This document shows, piece after piece, positions 9,040 through 34,230 of a stretch of DNA of 34,506 nt. This DNA comes from a virus. Lineage: Duplodnaviria > Caudoviricetes. A model generated the notes under the pieces. It saw only the letters and a list, made by a program, of their open reading frames with translations, was not told the origin of the DNA and did not search any database. The stretch is taken from IMG/VR virus record IMGVR_UViG_3300036798_000078, positions 1 through 34,506 of that record. One strand, given 5' to 3'. Numbering within the stretch: position 1 is the first letter of the stretch; every line of letters starts with the position of its first letter. Position numbers and translations under genes: made by a program.

Positions 9040-10928
9040 TGGACCTGAACGATCTGCCTAGGGTAGACCTGAACGAGCTGATCTTGGGCGGATATGCGCC
9101 TGTCGCGGTGTCGAACGAGCCTGGCCAAGAGTTCATTGTTATTGCGCCTGAGAGCTCGGACTTGCCGTTCTCTACCAATGCTCCCGTTGCGCGTATGACG
9201 CCGACTGAACATAGTCGGATGATGATGGAGCGTGCAGCACAGGCAACGCTTGCCGACAAGCCGCTACGTTCCAGGATCGTTGGTCTGGCGCGGCAGGGTC
9301 GGCCGCCTAACGAACCTGATATACCGTCGGGCCTGAGCTTCGATCCGCCCGAGAACATACGCAGTGGTTTCAGTCAGGAGACAGGACAGCCAATACAGCA
9401 GCCGCGTGTTACCATGTCGCGTGGTCAAGGAGTAGGATCTGTCTCTGCGGTTCCTGGTATGGGCTCAGAGATGGGGTCTTCTAGCCCCTCACCGTTCACC
9501 TCCTGGATGCGTCGGGAGTACAATAGGGACTTGATTGGTGTCAAGGGGCTCAGGGTCTACGACAGAATGCGGAAGAGCGATGGCACTGTCAGAGGAACGC
9601 TACGACTGGCTAAGACTCCTGTGCTTGCAGGTCTCTGGTCGATAAAGCCAGCGACTAGTTCGTCGCAGGACCAGATGATTGCGAACTTCGTCTGGCAGAA
9701 CATGACTGAGTGGATGTCGACTTCGTGGCCTCAGACGCTGACTGAGTCTCTGCTCATGCTCGACTTCGGATATTACATGTTCGAGCTCGTCTTCACAGCA
9801 GGCGAGATACTCACCGCAGACCCTGCAGCTCGTGGCAAGATTGTCTGGCGGAAGTGGGCTCCTCGGCACCCGATGGACGTGCGACAGTGGTTCTTCGATC
9901 TCAACGGCGGACCTATGTCGGTGGATATGTGGACCACTCCTGCGCGTGTGCCGACGTGGGAAGGTGCTACTGTACAGACGATGATGCAGTACACCAACAT
10001 TCCTATCGACAAGATGATGGTCTTCTCCTTCGACAAAGAGGCCGGCAACATCGAAGGTATCTCCTTGCTGCGTTCGGCTCACAAGCACTGGTATTACAAG
10101 GATAACTTGTACAAGATCGATGCCATTCAGAAGGAGCGGCACGGCATTGGTGTTCCTGTCATCCAGCTTCCACCAGGCTACGGTGCGCCTGACTTGCAGA
10201 TGGCTGACTCTCTGGGTCGGAACCTTAGGACCAACGATCGGGCGCATGTCGTGCTTCCGCCGAACTGGGTTCTGACCTTTGCGGAGCTCAAGGGCAATCC
10301 GGTCAATTGCATCCAAAGCATCGAACATCACGACCAGCAGATCCAGATTCAGATTCTGGGCAACTTCTTGTCGCAGAATGTCAAGACCGACGAGGCAGAC
10401 CATACGCTATTTCTTAAGGCGACTCGGTTCACTGCGGACATTGTCACTGACGTAATCAACTCTTACGGTATACCGCAGCTCGTAGACATGAACTGGGCTG
10501 GTGCTCGGTATCCGAAGCTTACCGTCAAGCGCATTGGCGAGGTCGAAGACTGGCGTACTGCTTCGTTTACCATCAGGAACTACGTGGGCGCAGGCGTGAT
10601 TGTGCCTGACCAGCCACTGGAAGACCATTTGCGTGATGAGATGGGTCTTCCGCCTGCAGATCCCAAGACGTCGAGGCTAGTATACGAGTCGTTCAACAAG
10701 AACGTTACTCAGCCTCCGCCTGCTGAGATGCCAGGGGAGCCCGGAGACATCCAAGAGGCGTTGCAGACTGGTCAGATGACTCCCCAGCAGGTTCAGCAGG
10801 CGCAGAACATTCAGCAAGCGAACGGACAGCAGGCGGGTATGCCAAGGCAAGCGAATCCGCCGACACCGACTCCGCCTACGACGGGGAAGGGCGACAACTC
10901 TGGTAGGGGTGGAAGGAGAGGTCAATGA
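9039..10928 (+). CDS. Portal protein (Mu gp29/DUF935-like)
   Basis: Follows TerL; YDRMRKSDGTV, LDFGYYMFE, GISLLRSA..HWYYK, ERHGIGVP. Confidence 0.9.
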   Translation: MDLNDLPRVDLNELILGGYAPVAVSNEPGQEFIVIAPESSDLPFSTNAPVARMTPTEHSRMMMERAAQATLADKPLRSRIVGLARQGRPPNEPDIPSGLSFDPPENIRSGFSQETGQPIQQPRVTMSRGQGVGSVSAVPGMGSEMGSSSPSPFTSWMRREYNRDLIGVKGLRVYDRMRKSDGTVRGTLRLAKTPVLAGLWSIKPATSSSQDQMIANFVWQNMTEWMSTSWPQTLTESLLMLDFGYYMFELVFTAGEILTADPAARGKIVWRKWAPRHPMDVRQWFFDLNGGPMSVDMWTTPARVPTWEGATVQTMMQYTNIPIDKMMVFSFDKEAGNIEGISLLRSAHKHWYYKDNLYKIDAIQKERHGIGVPVIQLPPGYGAPDLQMADSLGRNLRTNDRAHVVLPPNWVLTFAELKGNPVNCIQSIEHHDQQIQIQILGNFLSQNVKTDEADHTLFLKATRFTADIVTDVINSYGIPQLVDMNWAGARYPKLTVKRIGEVEDWRTASFTIRNYVGAGVIVPDQPLEDHLRDEMGLPPADPKTSRLVYESFNKNVTQPPPAEMPGEPGDIQEALQTGQMTPQQVQQAQNIQQANGQQAGMPRQANPPTPTPPTTGKGDNSGRGGRRGQ

Positions 10929-11596
10929 CGTCAGATCAAGGACGTGGTTTCGACAGGATCGGTGTAGCGGTCGGTTTGGACCTGGTCGACCATGGCCGTG
11001 TCAGGACCAGTCTTCGCGTAGAGCGCTGGGACGAGGAGCAGCGCCAGTACGCTATGCGGCATCCTCGGTTCCGGAACATCGCGTATCCAGGATGGGAGCC
11101 GGTTACTAAGCACTTCCGCGTGCTCAATGTTCGTCCGTACTCCGTGACCGAGGACCATGACTGCAACCTGATTACGTGGGCTGGCTGGGCTGCGATGATG
11201 GGCTCTATCGGTGGCACATCCATCTCTTCCAAGTTCAGTGCTACAGTCGGCCGCATCGGTATCGGAACCGGATCGCCTACAGCTGCTGGCGGAGACACAG
11301 CACTGAGCGCTGCAGCGTTCGCAGCTACGGGATCGAACTGGAAGCTGATAGGTGCTGCACCAACCATCACTGCCACCGCTACGCCGTGCACGATGGTCTG
11401 GTCGGTCGCGTTCGTCGGCGCTGACGCCGTTGGCAACTGGGGTGAGTTCGCCGTCGATATCGGAACGGCTAGCTCTACGGTAGGTACGCCAACGACAGCA
11501 GCAACGGCTCCGATGGTGAATCACGGCGTCTCTGCACAGGGCAGCAAGCTCAACACCCAGACCTGGACGCCTACTGTTACTCTCAGCTTGACCTAG
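10925..11596 (+). CDS. Virion structural protein (collar/fibre-subunit-like)
   Basis: NLIT..G...IGIGTG..TAA..DTAL...F....A.GNW.EF...MVN......K pattern recalled from phage fibre/baseplate beta-sandwich proteins. Confidence 0.6.
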   Translation: MTSDQGRGFDRIGVAVGLDLVDHGRVRTSLRVERWDEEQRQYAMRHPRFRNIAYPGWEPVTKHFRVLNVRPYSVTEDHDCNLITWAGWAAMMGSIGGTSISSKFSATVGRIGIGTGSPTAAGGDTALSAAAFAATGSNWKLIGAAPTITATATPCTMVWSVAFVGADAVGNWGEFAVDIGTASSTVGTPTTAATAPMVNHGVSAQGSKLNTQTWTPTVTLSLT

Positions 11597-11604
11597 TAGG
11601 TAAC

Positions 11605-12483
11605 ATGCCGCTCGCAATAGAGCTATTTACCAACCCTCCGACGACGGCGGTAACCGTTACCGCTGGTGGTACGACCGCGCCAACGGCAGGTACGACGGAG
11701 ACGTGGACTCTGGCTGGTGGCTATGCGCAGTTGCCACAGGTTAGCAACGCAGCTGTGCCGCCTACTCAGTTTCATTTCTACGACGCCTCGTTCCCTAGCG
11801 AGATAATGCTAGGGACTAACCTCAGTGGGGCTACTCTTAGTGTCACACGCGGAGTCGAGGGTGCTACTGTCGCGCATCCGCTTGCCACTAACCTTCCGGT
11901 ACAGACGATATCGGCCGGAGTAATGGGATTGTTTCAGCAGCAGTCTCCCTCTAAGATACCGGCCAGCCAGGGAGACGCGACAACTACTACAGTCACTACC
12001 GTCTCTACAACTACGTTCTACCCGCTTAGCAAGGCGTGGGCTATACCGGCCAACGATGCGAATGTCGCTACGATATATGAACTGACAGTGTTCGGCAATG
12101 GTACGTGGGCTTCGACAGCGTGCTCCCTCAACTTCCAGGTTAGCGCATTCGGTGTAGTTGTTGCTAAGATTCAGGTAGGCAGTACTATGCTTCCTGCATC
12201 TGCTAACTTCTGCTGGGGCCTAACTACCAAGATCGTTGTCATAAACAATACCTCGTCTGGATCGATAGCTGCCGAGTCAGATGGCGCTATATCGAACTAT
12301 GCTCAGAACCTGAGTGTGACTGGCGGTTCAAGCGCCAACTCGACCGCAGGCCTAGCTGGTCAGTCTGCTACTACATCGGCTAACGTGGCTGCTGGTGGCA
12401 CCTTGCAGCTTACCGCTCAGTGGAACACTGCTGCAGGTTCTGTCTCGTCGTTCGGTTCCTTGCTCGACCGTAAAGGTCAGTGA
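11605..12483 (+). CDS. Thr/Ala/Ser-rich virion fibre/adhesin-like protein
   Basis: EIM...LSVTRGVEG..AH motif of phage fibre N-termini; beta-rich C-terminus. Confidence 0.6.
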   Translation: MPLAIELFTNPPTTAVTVTAGGTTAPTAGTTETWTLAGGYAQLPQVSNAAVPPTQFHFYDASFPSEIMLGTNLSGATLSVTRGVEGATVAHPLATNLPVQTISAGVMGLFQQQSPSKIPASQGDATTTTVTTVSTTTFYPLSKAWAIPANDANVATIYELTVFGNGTWASTACSLNFQVSAFGVVVAKIQVGSTMLPASANFCWGLTTKIVVINNTSSGSIAAESDGAISNYAQNLSVTGGSSANSTAGLAGQSATTSANVAAGGTLQLTAQWNTAAGSVSSFGSLLDRKGQ

Positions 12484-14843
12484 TGGTAGGAGTTGCTCCC
12501 GAGCCGCTTGCTGTCACACCATATACGATTAAGACTCAGGTCAATAATACTGCGACGACTAGCTGGACCACTACGGCTGCTACTGGCCCAGCTCCTATTG
12601 GCGATGCAGTAGTTATCTTCGTTTCGTCCGGCACATCAGGCAATACTGTTACTGGTATTTCCGACAGTGTGGGTAATACATATACTCTTGGGCCTGCTCT
12701 TGCTACGTGGCCGTATCAGTGGGCATACTATTCGCTCGCCATTACTCACGCTATCACTACATCGACGACATTTACGGTCACCTTTTCTGCTGCGGCAGTT
12801 GGATCCATCATCGTACGCGGCTGCCCGAGCGTCACCGCCCTTGATGCTCATCCGGCCGTCGTAGGCGCGACCAGCGCTGCTGCGGCTTCCAACCCGACTG
12901 GGGTCTTGGCCCAGGCATCCGAGTGGGTCATCGGATGTATTGTCGACGGCGCCTCTGGCGGTTCGCCAACGGCACTGAGCATCCCTTCGTTCGTCAGCCA
13001 GCAGATTACCGGCGACCCGTGGTACACTGGGTGTGACGAGATCGTTAGCTCGACCGCCAGCCAGACGCTCAGCGCGACCCTGGCCGCCTCGATTGTCTGG
13101 TCCGCGTCTATTCTTTCGTTCACGCTGACCACAGCTGCACCGGTATATTATACTCCCGTCAGTGCTGTACCAGGCGTTGCTATACCAGGACGGTTCTCTC
13201 CCGGAAGCTACGTCAACATTCCGGTGGCGTTTGCTGACTCGGGTACTGGCTCAGATGCCATAGTCGTAGCTGAGGGCATTCCTGTCACCGACTCGGGTAC
13301 TGGTACTGACTCGATAGCTGTCAATGTCGAGGCTCTGGCCCTAGCTGACTCGGGCACCGGTACCGATTCTATAGCGGTACTGACTAGAGCTGCAGCGCTA
13401 GCTGACTCCGGAAGCGGTGCTGACTCGGTAGCAGTGCTAGCCAAGACTGCATCGTTGGCTGATGCAGGTGCTGGCGTCGACTCGATAGTAGTGTCGCAGG
13501 CAGGAACAGTTTCGCTAACTGACGCTGGTGCTGGTAGCGATTCGATTACTACGACAGTTGCTGCTCCTATCGCGGACTCTGGTTCTGGCACTGACTCGAT
13601 TTCTGTAGTTGCGACTGTTCCGCTTGCTGACGCAGGTACTGGAGCTGATTCGATAGCGCAGGCGGGGACTACTGTACTGTCCGACTCAGGTACTGGTGCA
13701 GATAGCATTTCCGTAAGCGTAACCTTGTCACTAGCAGACTCCGGTATTGGTTCAGAGTCAGTAGCCTCTGCTGTAGTTCTTAGTCTCGCCGACTCTGGTG
13801 CTGGAACGGACAGTCTAGGTGGATCGTTTACCAGATCGCTAGCTGACTCTGGCGCAGGTACAGACTCCATATCGACTGCTATATCTCCACAGCTGACGGA
13901 TGCTGGCACAGGCGTAGATGTCCTAGGCGGAAGCTTTACCAAGGCACTAGCTGACTCCGGTACTGGTGCAGACGCACTGGTGATTCCGGGTACTATAGTT
14001 CCGCTGTCTGATTCCGGTGCTGGTACTGACTCGATTACTGTAGCGGTAACCGTTAGCCTGGGAGACTCCGGTACTGGTGCCGATGTACTGGGCGGTAGCT
14101 ACACCAAGAGTCTAGGCGATACTGGTACAGCTGCGGATACTATAGTTCTTGCTCACGCAGTAGCGCTGCTGGATCAAGGCTCTGGCATTGATACCATAGT
14201 TGTAGTCAGGTCCATATCGCTCGTTAGTTCCGGTACTGCGACTGACTCCATATCGGTATCCGTCTTTACACCAACCGGCGATGTGCGTACGCCTCTCCAG
14301 CTGAGTGGAGTCTTTGCGGATGAGAACCTGCTTGGTGGCTCGATTGTTGATGCGTTGGGTCTTGGCGGCACGATTATTGATGGCAATACGTTGTCAGGTG
14401 CTATTGTTGATGGCAACGTTCTGGCTGGTATGATTGGGCGCGCTGTAATTCTGTCTGGTACTATGGTTGTACAGGTCGTCGATAGCGTTCTGGAGGAGTG
14501 GACAATGCAAGAGGTAGACATTACGCTGGCAGAGTTCAACGACGAGACTCTTGCCCTCACGATCACAGCTAGTGGCGTTCCTCTCAACATTACTGGCATG
14601 GAGATCGACATGCTCCTCAAGACTCAGTCTGGCGTCTCGGACATAGATCCGTCGACTCTCAAGCTGTCGACGACTACGGGCGAGATCACCATTACCGACG
14701 GCCCTGCAGGACAAGCTACCGTCGCTATAGCTTCCGTCAACCTACAGCCTACTCCGCCTTTCGGATTCCATCGAGTGGACATTCTAGAGGGCGGCAAGCG
14801 GAACACTGCGCTGTTTGGTACGGTCTCGATTACACCGTTGTGA
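12480..14843 (+). CDS. Large repeat-containing virion protein with C-terminal BppU-like Ig domain
   Basis: N-terminal beta domain, 19 repeats of L.D.G.G.D.I, then ~10-aa L.G.I.D repeats, then PLNITG...GEITITDG..GQATV. Confidence 0.7.
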   Translation: MMVGVAPEPLAVTPYTIKTQVNNTATTSWTTTAATGPAPIGDAVVIFVSSGTSGNTVTGISDSVGNTYTLGPALATWPYQWAYYSLAITHAITTSTTFTVTFSAAAVGSIIVRGCPSVTALDAHPAVVGATSAAAASNPTGVLAQASEWVIGCIVDGASGGSPTALSIPSFVSQQITGDPWYTGCDEIVSSTASQTLSATLAASIVWSASILSFTLTTAAPVYYTPVSAVPGVAIPGRFSPGSYVNIPVAFADSGTGSDAIVVAEGIPVTDSGTGTDSIAVNVEALALADSGTGTDSIAVLTRAAALADSGSGADSVAVLAKTASLADAGAGVDSIVVSQAGTVSLTDAGAGSDSITTTVAAPIADSGSGTDSISVVATVPLADAGTGADSIAQAGTTVLSDSGTGADSISVSVTLSLADSGIGSESVASAVVLSLADSGAGTDSLGGSFTRSLADSGAGTDSISTAISPQLTDAGTGVDVLGGSFTKALADSGTGADALVIPGTIVPLSDSGAGTDSITVAVTVSLGDSGTGADVLGGSYTKSLGDTGTAADTIVLAHAVALLDQGSGIDTIVVVRSISLVSSGTATDSISVSVFTPTGDVRTPLQLSGVFADENLLGGSIVDALGLGGTIIDGNTLSGAIVDGNVLAGMIGRAVILSGTMVVQVVDSVLEEWTMQEVDITLAEFNDETLALTITASGVPLNITGMEIDMLLKTQSGVSDIDPSTLKLSTTTGEITITDGPAGQATVAIASVNLQPTPPFGFHRVDILEGGKRNTALFGTVSITPL
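13230..14265 (+). repeat. 19 tandem 18-20-codon coding repeats (consensus LADSGTGTDSI.V)
   Basis: Counted in the translation, from FADSGTGSDAI to LVSSGTATDSI; boundaries approximate. Confidence 0.9.
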
Positions 14844-14912: not shown

Positions 14913-15242
14913 ATGTCGGTATACGCACCCTCAGGGTCAGGCAACGTTCACGTCGACACAGTCATGGGCGCTGGAGGTAAGAAGAAAGTGGCTGCGAAAG
15001 GTGGCGCCGCAAAGAAGGGTGGCGCTAAGAAGGGCATGGGATTCAAGGCCGCAGCAGCCTCTGCTGCTAAGTCGGCAGGCGTATCTCCCCAGCAGGGTGC
15101 AGCGATAGTGGCTGCAGCATCGCAGAAGGCTTCACCGAAGGCCAGGAAGGCTAACCCCAACCTTGCCAAGGTGGCTCGTCCTGGTACTAAGAAGACAGCT
15201 GGCGGCAAGTTCGTCAAGAAGGCTTCAGGAGGCAAGAAGTGA
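14913..15242 (+). CDS. Lys/Ala-rich basic protein with MCP-like N-terminal peptide
   Basis: 21 Lys + 2 Arg versus 1 Asp; first 18 aa match the MCP N-terminus at 14 positions. Confidence 0.85.
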   Translation: MSVYAPSGSGNVHVDTVMGAGGKKKVAAKGGAAKKGGAKKGMGFKAAAASAAKSAGVSPQQGAAIVAAASQKASPKARKANPNLAKVARPGTKKTAGGKFVKKASGGKK

Positions 15243-31560: not shown

Positions 31561-31867
31561 CTATTTCCTTCTTCAGTTGTTCGGCCTCTGCCTGTAGCTC
31601 TTCTATTCGTTGTTCGATTACAGCGAGCCGGGCCTGTGGAGATTTGCGATCGCCTCGGGTCCGGAGTTCGAGGTTGGCTGGGTCTAGGTTAGTCCGATCG
31701 TTGTCGATGAACTTGACAAACTCGTTCGGTTCGAGTCGTCTACCGAGCTTCTCCTCCATGAGGAGGGTGTGAGTGGCTACGAAGCCGCGACCTTCGACCT
31801 TGGTATGGTGGTAGCCGTTCTGGTTGGTAAAGGTGTCGCCTACTGCTGCTGCTTGACCTCTAGGCAT
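31547..31867 (-). CDS. Degenerate HNH-like protein with C-terminal coiled coil
   Basis: TAATG overlap; GY...H.LLME.KLGRRL...EFVKFIDNDRTNLDPANLEL. Confidence 0.75.
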   Translation of the reverse strand: MPRGQAAAVGDTFTNQNGYHHTKVEGRGFVATHTLLMEEKLGRRLEPNEFVKFIDNDRTNLDPANLELRTRGDRKSPQARLAVIEQRIEELQAEAEQLKKEIANAN

Positions 31868-34230
31868 TACAACTGTCCCCAATCTGTTCCGGTTTTGATG
31901 TCGATGTCAATGTTCACATAGTCGCCCACAACTTGTTGTCCGGACTTGATCATGTAGTAGCTGACTAGGTCGGACACTCTGTCTACGTCGGTCTTGCGAC
32001 ACTCGACTATGAGGTTGTCGTGAACGATGTTGCGTACGTACCCTAGGCCCTTGAGAGCTGGCCTGACCCACGTGAATGCTTGAAGGCAAATGTCTGAGGC
32101 AATCGATTGTGGCTGGAAGGCTAGGGCCTCGTTCATAACCTCGTGCTTGTTCTCTTTGGTGATGAGCCAGAACCTGCGATGTCTACCGAACGGTGTCGTG
32201 AGGTCTTTTCCAGCGAGGACATCTCGACGTGTTTGTTCGCGATAGTCCACGATGTTTGGTATGACGCCGAAGAACGCGCGCATAGCTCGTTGAGCTTCCG
32301 CAACGGACATCCCATGCTCTTCGGCTATGGACTTGGCTTCGCGTCCGTAGCCTAGGCCATAGAAGTAAGCTTTGACTCGAATACGTAGTTCGTACATCTG
32401 CCACTTGTCTAGCTTTGACGTATCGCCGTATAGTACTGGCGTCAGCTCATCGAACAGGTCTCGAGTAGGATCGTTAAAGATGTCTCGGAGATAGTCCTCT
32501 TGTGCTAGCCAAGTCAGAATGCGTGCTTCAATTTGCTTGTAGTCAGCGTTCACGAACACGTTGTCAGGGTGTACAGGAACGAACTGCTTCCTGATTCGCC
32601 AGCCTCGGGTGATGTTCTGGAGGTTGGGATTCCTGCTGCTGAGCCTGCCTGTAGTTGTTCCGTGGAGCAAGAACGTTGGGAAGACTCTTCCCTGGTGCGT
32701 TCGTCTGCGAATGCCTTTGACGTAGGTGCCATACGACTTAGCGTCGAGTCGGTGCTCTGCTAGTGCACATAGGAAGTCGTAGTACTCACCCCACGGCTCT
32801 TCGCATCTCGAGATCAGTAGTGCAATGACTTCCTTGTCAGTGCAAGGTCGCCATTCGCCTGACTGGTTTCTCTTTCTCGGTACTGTTATGCCAAAGCGCT
32901 TCGTAAGTACGTCTACGATCTGTAGAGGTGAGTTCGGGTTGAAGTCGCGTCTGCGAGATGTTATCTGCATGTCGCGTCGGAGCATTGCAAGTCTGCGACC
33001 GTAGAACTCTGCAAGATCGTCGTTGTACTTAAGGTCTATGCCGATACCGTTCAGCTCTACGTACATGAGCTCGTTCGACGCTCGAACTAGGAAGTCGTGT
33101 AGCGCTCGGAGGTCTGGCGTCATTAGTTGTGTGAACAGTTCATACAGCGCGAAAGTTGCTGCACAGTCGTAGGCGTTATATCTGTACAGAACGTCTCTGG
33201 GGATAACGCCGTAGCCTCTGCCTCGCTGTAGGTATCGTTTGATGTCATCGTCGTATCGTGGAGTACCTAGCAACTCGACTGCCAGGTACTTCAGACCATG
33301 GACGCCTCTCCGTTCGTCCAAGCAGTACGACGCAAGCATCGTGTCGAACCAGAGTCTGATAGCACCGATTCGATGGAACAAGCCACCAAGATCGAACTTT
33401 CCGTTCTGTGCAATGATACGGTTGTGAGAACGAAGATATTGTCCCAGACGTGACATGAAACGAGTATCGTTACATACCGCCTCACCGAAGACGACGACCT
33501 TGCCGGGAGCGTAACCAACTCCAATGCATAGTAGGTAGTGACGTGACGCATGTTCGAAGCTTACATCCTTATCTACGTCGGTCTCGATGTCTACCGTGAT
33601 TTCGGTAAGTGGTAGCTCGTCGACGACTTTGCAGGCTGTTTCTACGTCGTCGACGACTGTGATGACGGGCTCGGTCCACTCGCTCGATGGCCTTACGAGC
33701 TTGCCGAAGTCGTTAACGATGGAAGGGAAGAACGAGTCTCCCTTTGGTCTGAGACAGGCTGCCGGATGAAACGTTGGTATGACGTGAAGACCAAGTTCGT
33801 CCGACCATCGTGGCGGCCCGATCCTGAGCCGAGTGATACCATCCTTACTTCCCAGCAGCGATCGTGAGGCCGAGTTACCCAGAGCCACAACCGTATCGAC
33901 ACCTCGGTCTTGTAGCTCCTGAACGAGACGGGGCCTACAGCAATGAATCGCGTTCGCGGAGGGTGTCGCGTTGTCGGGTGGACGGCATAGGCAGGCATTT
34001 GTGAGGAGGGTATTGGCCCTAGGGATTTGGTAGTGCTCGAGTATTTTGTCGAGGAGTCTACCTGAGACCCCCACAAAAGGGTGTCCCAGTCGAGCTTCAT
34101 TTGCTCCCGGCGCTTCTCCAACCACTGCAAGATTCGTTTGCGCCGGTCCATCGGATGGGACGAATCGTCCAGCATCATACAGATCACACCTCTCGCACTC
34201 TGCGTCAGGATGCTTGCGTACTCTGTCCAT
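31867..34230 (-). CDS. DNA polymerase family A with N-terminal family-4-type uracil-DNA glycosylase domain
   Basis: CERC, GEAPGANE, HPFVG, CRPP, HPAACL (UDG); DIET, QNGKFD, YNAYD (3'-5' exo); TGRLSSRNPNLQNI, DYKQIE, KAYFYGLGYG, VHD (pol). Confidence 0.95.
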   Translation of the reverse strand: MDRVRKHPDAECERCDLYDAGRFVPSDGPAQTNLAVVGEAPGANEARLGHPFVGVSGRLLDKILEHYQIPRANTLLTNACLCRPPDNATPSANAIHCCRPRLVQELQDRGVDTVVALGNSASRSLLGSKDGITRLRIGPPRWSDELGLHVIPTFHPAACLRPKGDSFFPSIVNDFGKLVRPSSEWTEPVITVVDDVETACKVVDELPLTEITVDIETDVDKDVSFEHASRHYLLCIGVGYAPGKVVVFGEAVCNDTRFMSRLGQYLRSHNRIIAQNGKFDLGGLFHRIGAIRLWFDTMLASYCLDERRGVHGLKYLAVELLGTPRYDDDIKRYLQRGRGYGVIPRDVLYRYNAYDCAATFALYELFTQLMTPDLRALHDFLVRASNELMYVELNGIGIDLKYNDDLAEFYGRRLAMLRRDMQITSRRRDFNPNSPLQIVDVLTKRFGITVPRKRNQSGEWRPCTDKEVIALLISRCEEPWGEYYDFLCALAEHRLDAKSYGTYVKGIRRRTHQGRVFPTFLLHGTTTGRLSSRNPNLQNITRGWRIRKQFVPVHPDNVFVNADYKQIEARILTWLAQEDYLRDIFNDPTRDLFDELTPVLYGDTSKLDKWQMYELRIRVKAYFYGLGYGREAKSIAEEHGMSVAEAQRAMRAFFGVIPNIVDYREQTRRDVLAGKDLTTPFGRHRRFWLITKENKHEVMNEALAFQPQSIASDICLQAFTWVRPALKGLGYVRNIVHDNLIVECRKTDVDRVSDLVSYYMIKSGQQVVGDYVNIDIDIKTGTDWGQL

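What the first reader, a model, noticed from the sequence alone, without database searches (positions are those of the whole stretch)
10925..14843. Possible repeat-templated virion filament: 19 scaffold repeats mimic the N-terminus of a neighbouring subunit
Seen: the 787-aa protein has 19 repeats of L.D.G.G.D.I.V, mostly 18 aa apart. The 223-aa protein two genes upstream begins with the same pattern, TSDQGRGFDRIGV, and a weaker second copy LVDHGRVRTSLRV exactly 18 residues later (D4, D22); compare repeat 18, LLDQGSGIDTIVV. The module sits between portal and protease, away from the tail genes. Known: donor-strand complementation builds chaperone-usher pili. Inference: each repeat is a donor beta-strand that captures one subunit or nucleates a chain, giving a ruler-defined or branched head/neck appendage with a BppU-like anchor and 11605-12483 as tip. 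I know of no description of this arrangement.
Basis: partly seen in the sequence, partly recalled or inferred. Interest (0 to 1): 0.85.

Follow-up and report, generated by a model that had tools for sequence, protein, structure and literature searches.

The report
Rope-and-bead phage fibre with rope-mimicking beads
This uncultured soil phage encodes a long protein with 19 copies of a short motif next to a small protein that begins with the same motif; they most likely build a "beads on a string" fibre of a kind already seen by cryo-EM in other phages, and the new twist is that the bead carries its own spare copy of the string.

Summary
In detail: 19 repeats in the 787-aa protein, and the 223-aa protein starts with the same motif, which is conserved in 58 of 74 relatives. 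The two genes travel together (52 of 56 loci with enough sequence; 7 of 7 bacterial genomes). The small protein's predicted fold matches the dimeric beads of known chain-like fibres (GP4 fibre I, phage 812 arm segment, Sf14 neck protein). The big protein ends in a T5 p132/BppU-like collar domain. In syntenic relatives the same slot holds other subunit/repeat pairs, one a homologue of the A1002 fibre bead. Best reading (0.72): collar + rope + beads, as described for Bas63, GP4 and A1002, so the arrangement is not undescribed, and this scan noted such cassettes on other DNA. Against it: AlphaFold folds the repeats alone as a generic beta-solenoid, and the complex could not be predicted. The possibly new part is the bead's optional free rope copy, whose spacing tracks the rope's period. 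It would cap the bead or link beads without rope. Branching is unsupported. New variant of a known kind.

The parts
10925..11596 (+). A, 223 aa: predicted bead (whisker / arm-segment / T4 gp8-like fold), probably a dimer
   Evidence: AF2 pLDDT 78; VIA hits 9h4p_BD Z 9.8, 8jou_a Z 7.9, 9euf_b Z 7.9; phrog_23653/5417, unknown function; 1309 family representatives at E<=0.001
10925..10993 (+). A residues 1-23: free copy of the rope repeat (D4...D22), disordered in the monomer model, optional in the family
   Evidence: pLDDT <50; 53 of 74 relatives in the 18-aa register, 58 of 74 in any register; background 0.45% per position
10994..11032 (+). A residues 24-36: second, degenerate repeat copy, predicted as an integral beta-strand of the bead
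   Evidence: strand E26-35; weak couplings R34-T75, V26-I83, L30-P216, R34-Q212
11605..12483 (+). B, 292 aa: two-domain protein, possible accessory receptor-binding protein; not a fixed part of the module
   Evidence: no Pfam/PHROG hit; Atlas hits are unnamed viral proteins; full-length homologue in 1 of 82 loci (L033), partial matches in L020 and L034
12480..13133 (+). C residues 1-218: N-terminal beta-rich domain, probable distal tip; exchanged among relatives
   Evidence: homologues at the start of ropes L006, L019, L023, L025, L028; other ropes carry LamG3, DUF4082 or Gly_rich_2 (9 of 59 scanned)
13230..14264 (+). C residues 251-595: 19 repeats L.D.G.G.D.I.V, the probable rope
   Evidence: family statistics
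14292..14474 (+). C residues ~605-665: about six imperfect 10-aa G-G-x-I-V repeats, kept in all syntenic relatives whatever their rope; role unknown
   Evidence: sequence; L087, L088, L089, L092; pLDDT <50
14492..14507 (+). GGAGGAG six bases before an in-frame ATG (M676): possible internal start that would give a rope-less collar subunit
   Evidence: Met kept in 7 of 7 syntenic loci; separate gene in L094 and L014; translation not shown
14505..14843 (+). C residues 676-787: Ig-like domain related to T5 p132 / BppU N-terminus, probable collar anchor
   Evidence: profile A5 vs PDB: T5 p132 E 0.0025, 8HQZ_Q E 0.0077; BppU_N E 0.011; phrog_1084 E 2.5e-4

Best explanation
The 787-aa protein is most likely the string of a beads-on-a-string virion fibre: its C-terminal Ig-like domain would ring the neck or tail, its 19 repeats would each be captured as an extended beta-strand by the 223-aa protein, and its N-terminal domain would hang at the far end as a host-binding tip. 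Shown: repeats, shared motif, gene linkage, module exchange in relatives. Predicted: bead fold and collar fold. Inferred by analogy: A dimerises through its first helix, the rope completes or augments its beta-sheet, and repeat number sets fibre length (about 10 dimers if one repeat per monomer, about 19 if one per dimer; roughly 50-110 nm). The bead's free N-terminal copy of the repeat (residues 1-23) probably occupies the same site as the rope, as a placeholder before assembly or as a filler for sites the rope leaves empty; it is optional. Attachment site: neck about 50%, tail-tip collar about 35%, capsid about 15% (judgement).
For: Linkage: rope gene in 64 of 80 IMG/VR A loci (the best 80 of 151 found), 52 of the 56 with >=5 kb downstream, 60 of 64 within 2 kb; 7 of 7 actinobacterial genome loci and Rhodococcus phages REQ1, Madraxi, Jflix2, Shagrat; archaeal virus PhiF1 has two A genes beside an 18-aa-period protein. 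Fold: top VIA hits are one bead family; Foldseek ranks A511 gp105 2nd-4th, weakly. Strand signature: 827 of 890 spacings of 15-22 aa are even; strict two-residue alternation over the whole period in 653 repeats, Pro absent at positions 2-7 and 42% at 15. Slot swap: 7 syntenic loci (4 phage types) keep rope architecture and collar but have other repeats and other subunits (L090 is cut before its subunit gene); the L092 subunit is a homologue of 44NX_B, the 147-aa A1002 bead (E 3.7e-8), and 9RKV_A (E 0.0015). Period match: the only loci with 16-aa-dominant ropes (L005, L010; 81% identical, one event) are the only ones whose subunit copies are 16 apart; 41 of 47 are 18/18. Collar: T5 p132 hit. 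Precedent passages: Bas63, A1002, 812, Milano.
Against: AlphaFold2 on C alone folds repeats 251-510 as a two-strand-per-repeat solenoid with block pLDDT 74-85 over 251-400 (whole model 61.6, pTM 0.37), and only repeats 517-596 as long strands. Window repeats match the Ca-binding beta-helical antifreeze protein 3P4G at E 7.7e-9. Bead matches are middling (Z 7.9-9.8; the tool warns that Z under 8 may be a common arrangement) and there is no sequence hit to any solved bead. A's own second copy seems to sit on the C-terminal strand where the 812 scaffold binds, so the rope's site on A is not identified. 4 of 56 well-covered loci lack a strict rope (L034 has a degenerate one). Residue-level G/A co-variation (p 0.001 raw) vanished under a tree control. 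4 of 47 loci mismatch in period. 4 of the window's 18 spacings are odd.
Confidence: 0.72

Rival explanations
1. The repeats fold by themselves into a beta-solenoid stalk (RTX/antifreeze-protein-like, perhaps Ca-bound) between tip and anchor; A binds elsewhere or coats the stalk, and its N-terminal copies merely cap or mimic a coil.
For: AF2 solenoid, pLDDT 74-85 over residues 251-400; VIA Z 15.3-9.6 to beta-helices, 3P4G Z 14.0; phmmer 3P4G E 7.7e-9.
Against: The fold hits are generic (rmsd mostly 4-7 A, no standout). The family profile drops the 3P4G match to E 0.66. 37% of 963 distinct repeats have no Gly at either turn position, which fits poorly with an RTX-type Ca turn (own knowledge). 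It does not explain near-obligate linkage to a bead-fold gene, the slot swap or the period match.
Confidence: 0.13
2. One reading: each repeat nucleates a pilus-like chain of A that grows by N-terminal donor strands, giving a branched brush.
For: Free copy conserved in 58 of 74 relatives, disordered in the monomer; A511 beads chain up in crystals by donating His-tags to each other (PMC10811340 passage); loci with the free copy have longer ropes (median 15 vs 8.5 repeats, p 0.001, no tree control).
Against: Short variants without the free copy still have ropes of 5-12 repeats, including isolated Rhodococcus phages; all solved relatives read here are unbranched strings; no coupling between residues 1-23 and the core stood out (weak test).
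Confidence: 0.12
3. Same rope-and-bead mechanism, but anchored at the tail tip (T5 p132/BppU-like) rather than the neck. This differs from the best reading only in site.
For: Best sequence hit of the anchor is T5 p132, a dodecameric collar near the tail tip; A lies after tape measure/Dit genes in 17 of 80 loci; ropes are fused to a large hub-like protein in L007, L013, L026, L036, L040, L045 (Sipho_Gp37 E 0.022 for L013, below cut-off); SP-15's A follows a baseplate protein with degenerate repeats.
Against: The window and its syntenic relatives keep the module after the portal; Bas63 whisker gp5 is numbered between portal gp3 and capsid gp8; the rope gene directly precedes the head-tail adaptor in 9 of 28 loci whose neighbours were scanned.
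Confidence: 0.3

Closest known systems
Bas63 / Sf14 collar-whisker (PMC12609058, passages read)
   Same: Ig-like collar whose long N-terminal extension is a rope; dimeric whiskers wrap it like beads, the rope completing incomplete beta-sandwiches; whisker gene numbered between portal and capsid; Sf14 neck chain 9c39_K matches A at Z 4.9.
   Different: Two dimers per rope against 19 repeats here; myophage; 110-aa whisker without A's N-terminal hairpin; no tip domain and no rope copy on the bead described in the passages read.
Chain-like fibres of podophages A1002 (PMC13730344, sections 9, 11, 12 read), GP4 and VP1 (known only through that paper and Bas63's)
   Same: Rope protein with tandem sites for fibre dimers bound by beta-sheet augmentation; GP4 chain 8jou_a matches A residues 82-221 at Z 7.9; the A1002 bead's homologue fills this slot in relative L092.
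   Different: 5-11 dimers; the word 'repeat' does not occur in the A1002 text; beads are 140-171 aa. A1002 gp41 has ~30 unresolved N-terminal residues, a possible parallel that was not tested.
Phage 812 baseplate arm / A511 BW3-gp105 (PMC13433997 and PMC10811340, passages)
   Same: Scaffold linkers fill gaps between arm-segment dimers to make seven-stranded sheets; 9euf_b matches A at Z 7.9; SP-15 and LIS04 carry an A homologue right after a baseplate protein.
   Different: Baseplate arm of myophages, 3-6 dimers, irregular linkers with folded domains between.
T5 p132 collar / TP901-1 BppU N-terminal domain (PMC10038345, passages)
   Same: Ig-like structural ring that anchors fibres; profile hit E 0.0025.
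   Different: Stand-alone protein anchoring trimeric L-shaped fibres; no rope.
Marinomonas antifreeze protein region IV (3P4G) / RTX beta-rolls
   Same: D.GTG.D-like motif at 18-19 aa period; AF2 builds a similar solenoid from C.
   Different: Gly freely replaced by Ala in this family, even-numbered spacing, linkage to a bead gene.
Chaperone-usher pilus donor-strand exchange (recalled)
   Same: A disordered N-terminal extension that copies a strand completing the fold.
   Different: Unrelated fold, no chaperone or usher, separate scaffold present, extension optional.

Membership tests
Rope-and-bead (chain-like fibre / collar-whisker) assemblies | Small subunit with T4 gp8 / GP4 gp80 / arm-segment fold | tested here: met
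   VIA Z 7.9-9.8, rmsd 3.3-4.5 A over 115-132 residues on a pLDDT 78 model; middling scores, no sequence hit
Rope-and-bead (chain-like fibre / collar-whisker) assemblies | Linked scaffold with tandem strand-like sites | tested here: met
   52 of 56, 7 of 7; alternation and even spacing
Rope-and-bead (chain-like fibre / collar-whisker) assemblies | Ig-like collar or other virion anchor on or beside the rope | tested here: met
   T5 p132 E 0.0025, BppU_N E 0.011; weak but concordant
Rope-and-bead (chain-like fibre / collar-whisker) assemblies | Scaffold extended rather than self-folded | tested here: inconclusive
   AF2 gives a solenoid for 14 repeats and long strands for the last 5; sequence statistics favour extended strands
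Rope-and-bead (chain-like fibre / collar-whisker) assemblies | Subunit dimerises and binds the rope by beta-augmentation | not tested
Rope-and-bead (chain-like fibre / collar-whisker) assemblies | Present on the virion as a fibre | not testable with these tools
   uncultured phage; needs proteomics or EM of an isolated relative
RTX / MpAFP Ca-binding beta-solenoid | Conserved Gly-Gly/Gly-x-Gly Ca-binding turn | tested here: not met
   37% of 963 repeats lack Gly at both turn positions, 26% have both; family profile vs 3P4G E 0.66. The window's own repeats are Gly-rich.
RTX / MpAFP Ca-binding beta-solenoid | Repeats fold alone as a solenoid | tested here: inconclusive
   predicted so by AF2 at moderate confidence; generic matches only
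DUF3751 tail-collar fibre N-terminal domain (PF12571) | Pfam match | tested here: inconclusive
   no Pfam hit at E<=1; BFVD rows named tail-collar fibre at E 0.007-0.012
Chaperone-usher-type donor-strand polymer | Subunit polymerises through its own N-terminal extension | not tested
   extension present and disordered but absent in roped short variants; binding not modelled

The most novel reading that the evidence does not exclude
This bead family has captured its own rope repeat as an N-terminal donor strand. Free beads self-cap or link to each other with it, and the rope displaces it by donor-strand exchange, so the fibre assembles like a chaperone-free pilus on a ruler and can grow past or branch off the rope. 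The same bead/18-aa-rope pair spans actinobacterial siphophages, Bacillus myophages and an archaeal virus, and is swapped as a matched cassette in a fixed tip-rope-collar chassis.
Probability: 0.3. Interest if true: 0.72.

Novelty: new variant of a known kind. Interest (0 to 1): 0.45.

Why it matters
It gives a likely function to a large unannotated family (1309 clusters at 50% identity; PHROGs 'unknown') and a sequence rule for reading fibre length from a genome: ropes here run from 5 to 42 repeats, against 2-11 dimers in the solved fibres read here. Isolated phages (REQ1, Madraxi, Shagrat, SP-15, PhiF1) make it testable. If the bead's spare strand works by donor-strand exchange, it is a natural version of the His-tag chaining seen in A511 crystals and a simple system for length-programmed filaments.

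Tried and rejected
The reverse test (do such repeats occur without a bead gene?) was not run on the large collections; alignment A3 had no searchable stretch. The only reverse data are (4 records: REQ1, which has A, and MalagasyRose, which has related repeats and no A-family gene; its next gene has no PDB sequence hit). Single-sequence scans with A found nothing in viral contigs or GenBank phages; the C N-terminal region found no homologue among 432-1378-aa proteins. G/A co-variation between subunit and rope: p 0.001 raw at one of two positions, nothing with 4-6 independent pairs; rejected as evidence. A two-repeat (dimer) periodicity in ropes was sought and not found (lag 2 > lag 1 in 33 of 64). 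The 158-aa subunit of L087 has no PDB sequence relative. The A3 hit to 9e5c_0q is an Ala-rich 18-aa eukaryotic repeat without the Asp pattern; set aside. No RNA holder listed. LIS04 was fetched but not scanned for repeats. The Jabs preprint held no text; the ribosome-profiling preprint's 'donor strand' concerns host fimbriae. Paper searches that found no bead with its own rope copy: (open-access library only; the GP4, VP1, Sf14 and Bxb1 papers were not read, and no supplements were opened).
Full report
Setting. The window is a 34.5-kb virus record, about 53% complete, with terminase, portal, protease, capsid, neck, tail tube, tape measure, Dit, Tal-like, amidase and PolA genes: a siphophage layout. 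The one run that holds it is a soil metagenome. Prophage relatives of the subunit are in Streptosporangiaceae and Jiangellaceae genomes, so an actinobacterial host is likely but not shown.

Observation. Between portal and protease lie A (223 aa), B (292 aa), C (787 aa) and a 109-aa basic ORF. C has 19 repeats, 13 of 18 intervals being 18 aa. A's N-terminus ranks 2nd of 7028 windows under the repeat profile, and its second copy is weak. Shuffles of A never put the pattern in the first ten residues (0 of 200,000). In 74 distinct A N-termini the family rope profile peaks at just two offsets, 18 apart. The first copy is present in 53 of 74 at that register and 58 of 74 allowing small shifts, against 0.45% per position in other ORFs.

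The pair is linked. A profile scan found 151 A relatives in viral contigs and returned the best 80. A rope is present in 64 of 80, and in 52 of the 56 with at least 5 kb downstream; of the four misses, L034 has degenerate repeats. All 7 bacterial genome loci have one. Isolated Rhodococcus phages REQ1, Madraxi, Jflix2 and Shagrat carry a short A and one or two ropes just before the terminase. The archaeal virus PhiF1 has two A genes next to a protein with an 18-aa period. Bacillus phage SP-15 has an A homologue (HHalign 99.8%) after a baseplate protein ending in a few degenerate repeats. Ropes hold 5-42 repeats.

What A is. AlphaFold gives pLDDT 78 with residues 1-23 disordered and 26-35 as a strand. 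The best structural matches are a domain of the HFTV1 tail protein (Z 9.8, rmsd 4.5, 132 aligned), GP4 fibre I (Z 7.9, 3.3, 118), the 812 baseplate chain 9euf_b (Z 7.9, 3.4, 115) and a KP1 baseplate protein (Z 7.0); Sf14 neck, Bxb1 tail tip and 7-7-1 chains follow at Z 4.2-4.9. Foldseek gives the same family weakly, with A511 gp105 at ranks 2-4. These scores are middling, and no sequence link to a solved bead exists, but the hits agree. A weak coupling analysis on 248 sequences places strand 26-35 between strand 73-83 and the C-terminal strand, so the second copy is built into the fold and only the first is free.

What C is. It has a variable N-terminal domain of about 210 aa (relatives swap in LamG3, DUF4082 or Gly_rich_2 in 9 of 59 scanned), the repeats, a short 10-aa repeat stretch, and a 112-aa Ig-like domain whose profile hits the T5 collar p132 (E 0.0025), which that paper links to BppU and describes as a fibre-anchoring dodecamer (PMC10038345 passages). 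A GGAGGAG precedes the Met that starts this domain; the Met is kept in 7 of 7 syntenic loci and the domain is a separate gene in L094 and L014, so a rope-less collar subunit may also be made (inference). Family repeats look like one long amphipathic strand: 827 of 890 spacings are even, conserved and hydrophobic residues fall on every second position through the whole period, and Pro is confined to the end of the unit.

Slot swap. Searching with the collar domain returned 11 loci, 7 of them syntenic with the window (4 phage types). They keep repeat region, 10-aa repeats and collar, and mostly a tip domain on the same chain, but none has A or the Asp/Gly repeat (L090 is cut short). L092 has a 136-aa subunit homologous to 44NX_B, the 147-aa chain of the A1002 fibre entry (E 3.7e-8), with a different repeat of about 21 aa; L087, L088 and L089 have a 158-aa subunit with Pro-rich repeats. 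Subunit and repeat type change together. Within the A family, the one lineage with 16-aa ropes (L005, L010) also has its two subunit copies 16 apart, while 41 of 47 loci are 18/18 and 4 mismatch.

Precedent. In Bas63 a dodecamer of Ig-like collar proteins extends N-terminal ropes on which whisker dimers sit like beads, the rope completing their incomplete sandwiches; portal is gp3, whisker gp5, capsid gp8 (PMC12609058 passages). A1002 strings 11 dimers on a 300-A rope, GP4 five (PMC13730344 sections 9, 11, 12). In 812, scaffold linkers bridge arm-segment dimers into seven-stranded sheets (PMC13433997 passages). A511 beads chain up in crystals by exchanging His-tags (PMC10811340 passage). The 7-7-1 garland is described in PMC12796354 (passages). 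The arrangement is therefore known, and earlier notes of this scan reached the same reading on other genomes; my reading was set down before I saw them.

Against. The solenoid matches beta-helices in general, with no standout. The match to antifreeze protein 3P4G (E 7.7e-9) falls to E 0.66 with the family profile, and 37% of 963 repeats have no turn glycine. I read the solenoid as a default for a partnerless repeat, but it is not excluded. No complex could be predicted, the rope's site on A is unknown, residue-level co-variation failed a tree control, and no dimer periodicity was found.

Site. The family's position varies: after tape measure/Dit in 17 of 80 loci, directly before the head-tail adaptor in 9 of 28 scanned, before terminase, or after portal as here. 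The neck is the likeliest site by the Bas63 analogy, and the tail tip is a serious alternative. B has a full-length homologue in only 1 of 82 loci and is probably an accessory binding protein.

What may be new. Three searches found no bead described with its own rope copy (open-access texts only). The free copy is optional: 12 roped relatives lack it in any register, with ropes of 5-12 repeats, and loci that have it tend to have longer ropes (median 15 vs 8.5, uncorrected for ancestry). It most likely fills the rope site, as placeholder or linker. Verdict: new variant of a known kind, interest 0.45; the donor-strand-exchange reading has about 0.3 probability and would merit 0.72.

Noticed in passing
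window 14913-15242 (+) and 16911 onward: The 109-aa Lys/Ala-rich ORF starts with nearly the same 16 residues as the major capsid protein (M.VYAP.GSGNVHVD). The same duplication is seen in L088, L089/90/91/93 and L092 (K+R 21-23%). It could be an internal DNA-binding protein tethered by a capsid N-arm mimic.
   Followed up: partly
window 14492-14507: Shine-Dalgarno-like GGAGGAG before an in-frame ATG that starts the collar domain; the Met is conserved in syntenic relatives, suggesting a nested product.
   Followed up: partly
protein P0119 (538 aa): An A-family protein interrupted in its conserved FAWAEF motif by a ~330-aa insert with intein-like ends; Pfam gave no hit.
   Followed up: partly
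L004, L006, L037, L043, L048, L049, L066: Glycosyltransferase, nucleotide-sugar epimerase or methyltransferase genes next to the bead/rope module; the Ser/Thr-rich fibre might be glycosylated.
   Followed up: no
L066 and L067 (three ropes), L082, L103 and L109 (two ropes): Several ropes with different tip domains share a single bead gene.
   Followed up: partly
L087 5256-5732 and 6189-8342; L088; L089: A third subunit/repeat pair (158-aa protein without PDB relative, Pro-rich repeats) in the same chassis: possibly a rope-and-bead system with an unrelated bead.
   Followed up: partly
L108 6887-7435, 7776-8309, 8317-11814 (archaeal virus PhiF1): Two A paralogues beside a protein with two flavours of 18-aa-period repeat, recalling the two bead types of A1002.
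   Followed up: partly
L106 1421-2182 (Rhodococcus phage Jflix2 gene 3): The A homologue leaves the family sequence after about residue 174 and matches in two places, suggesting a frameshift in the record or gene.
   Followed up: no
window 31867-34230 (-): DNA polymerase A with an N-terminal uracil-DNA glycosylase domain.
   Followed up: no
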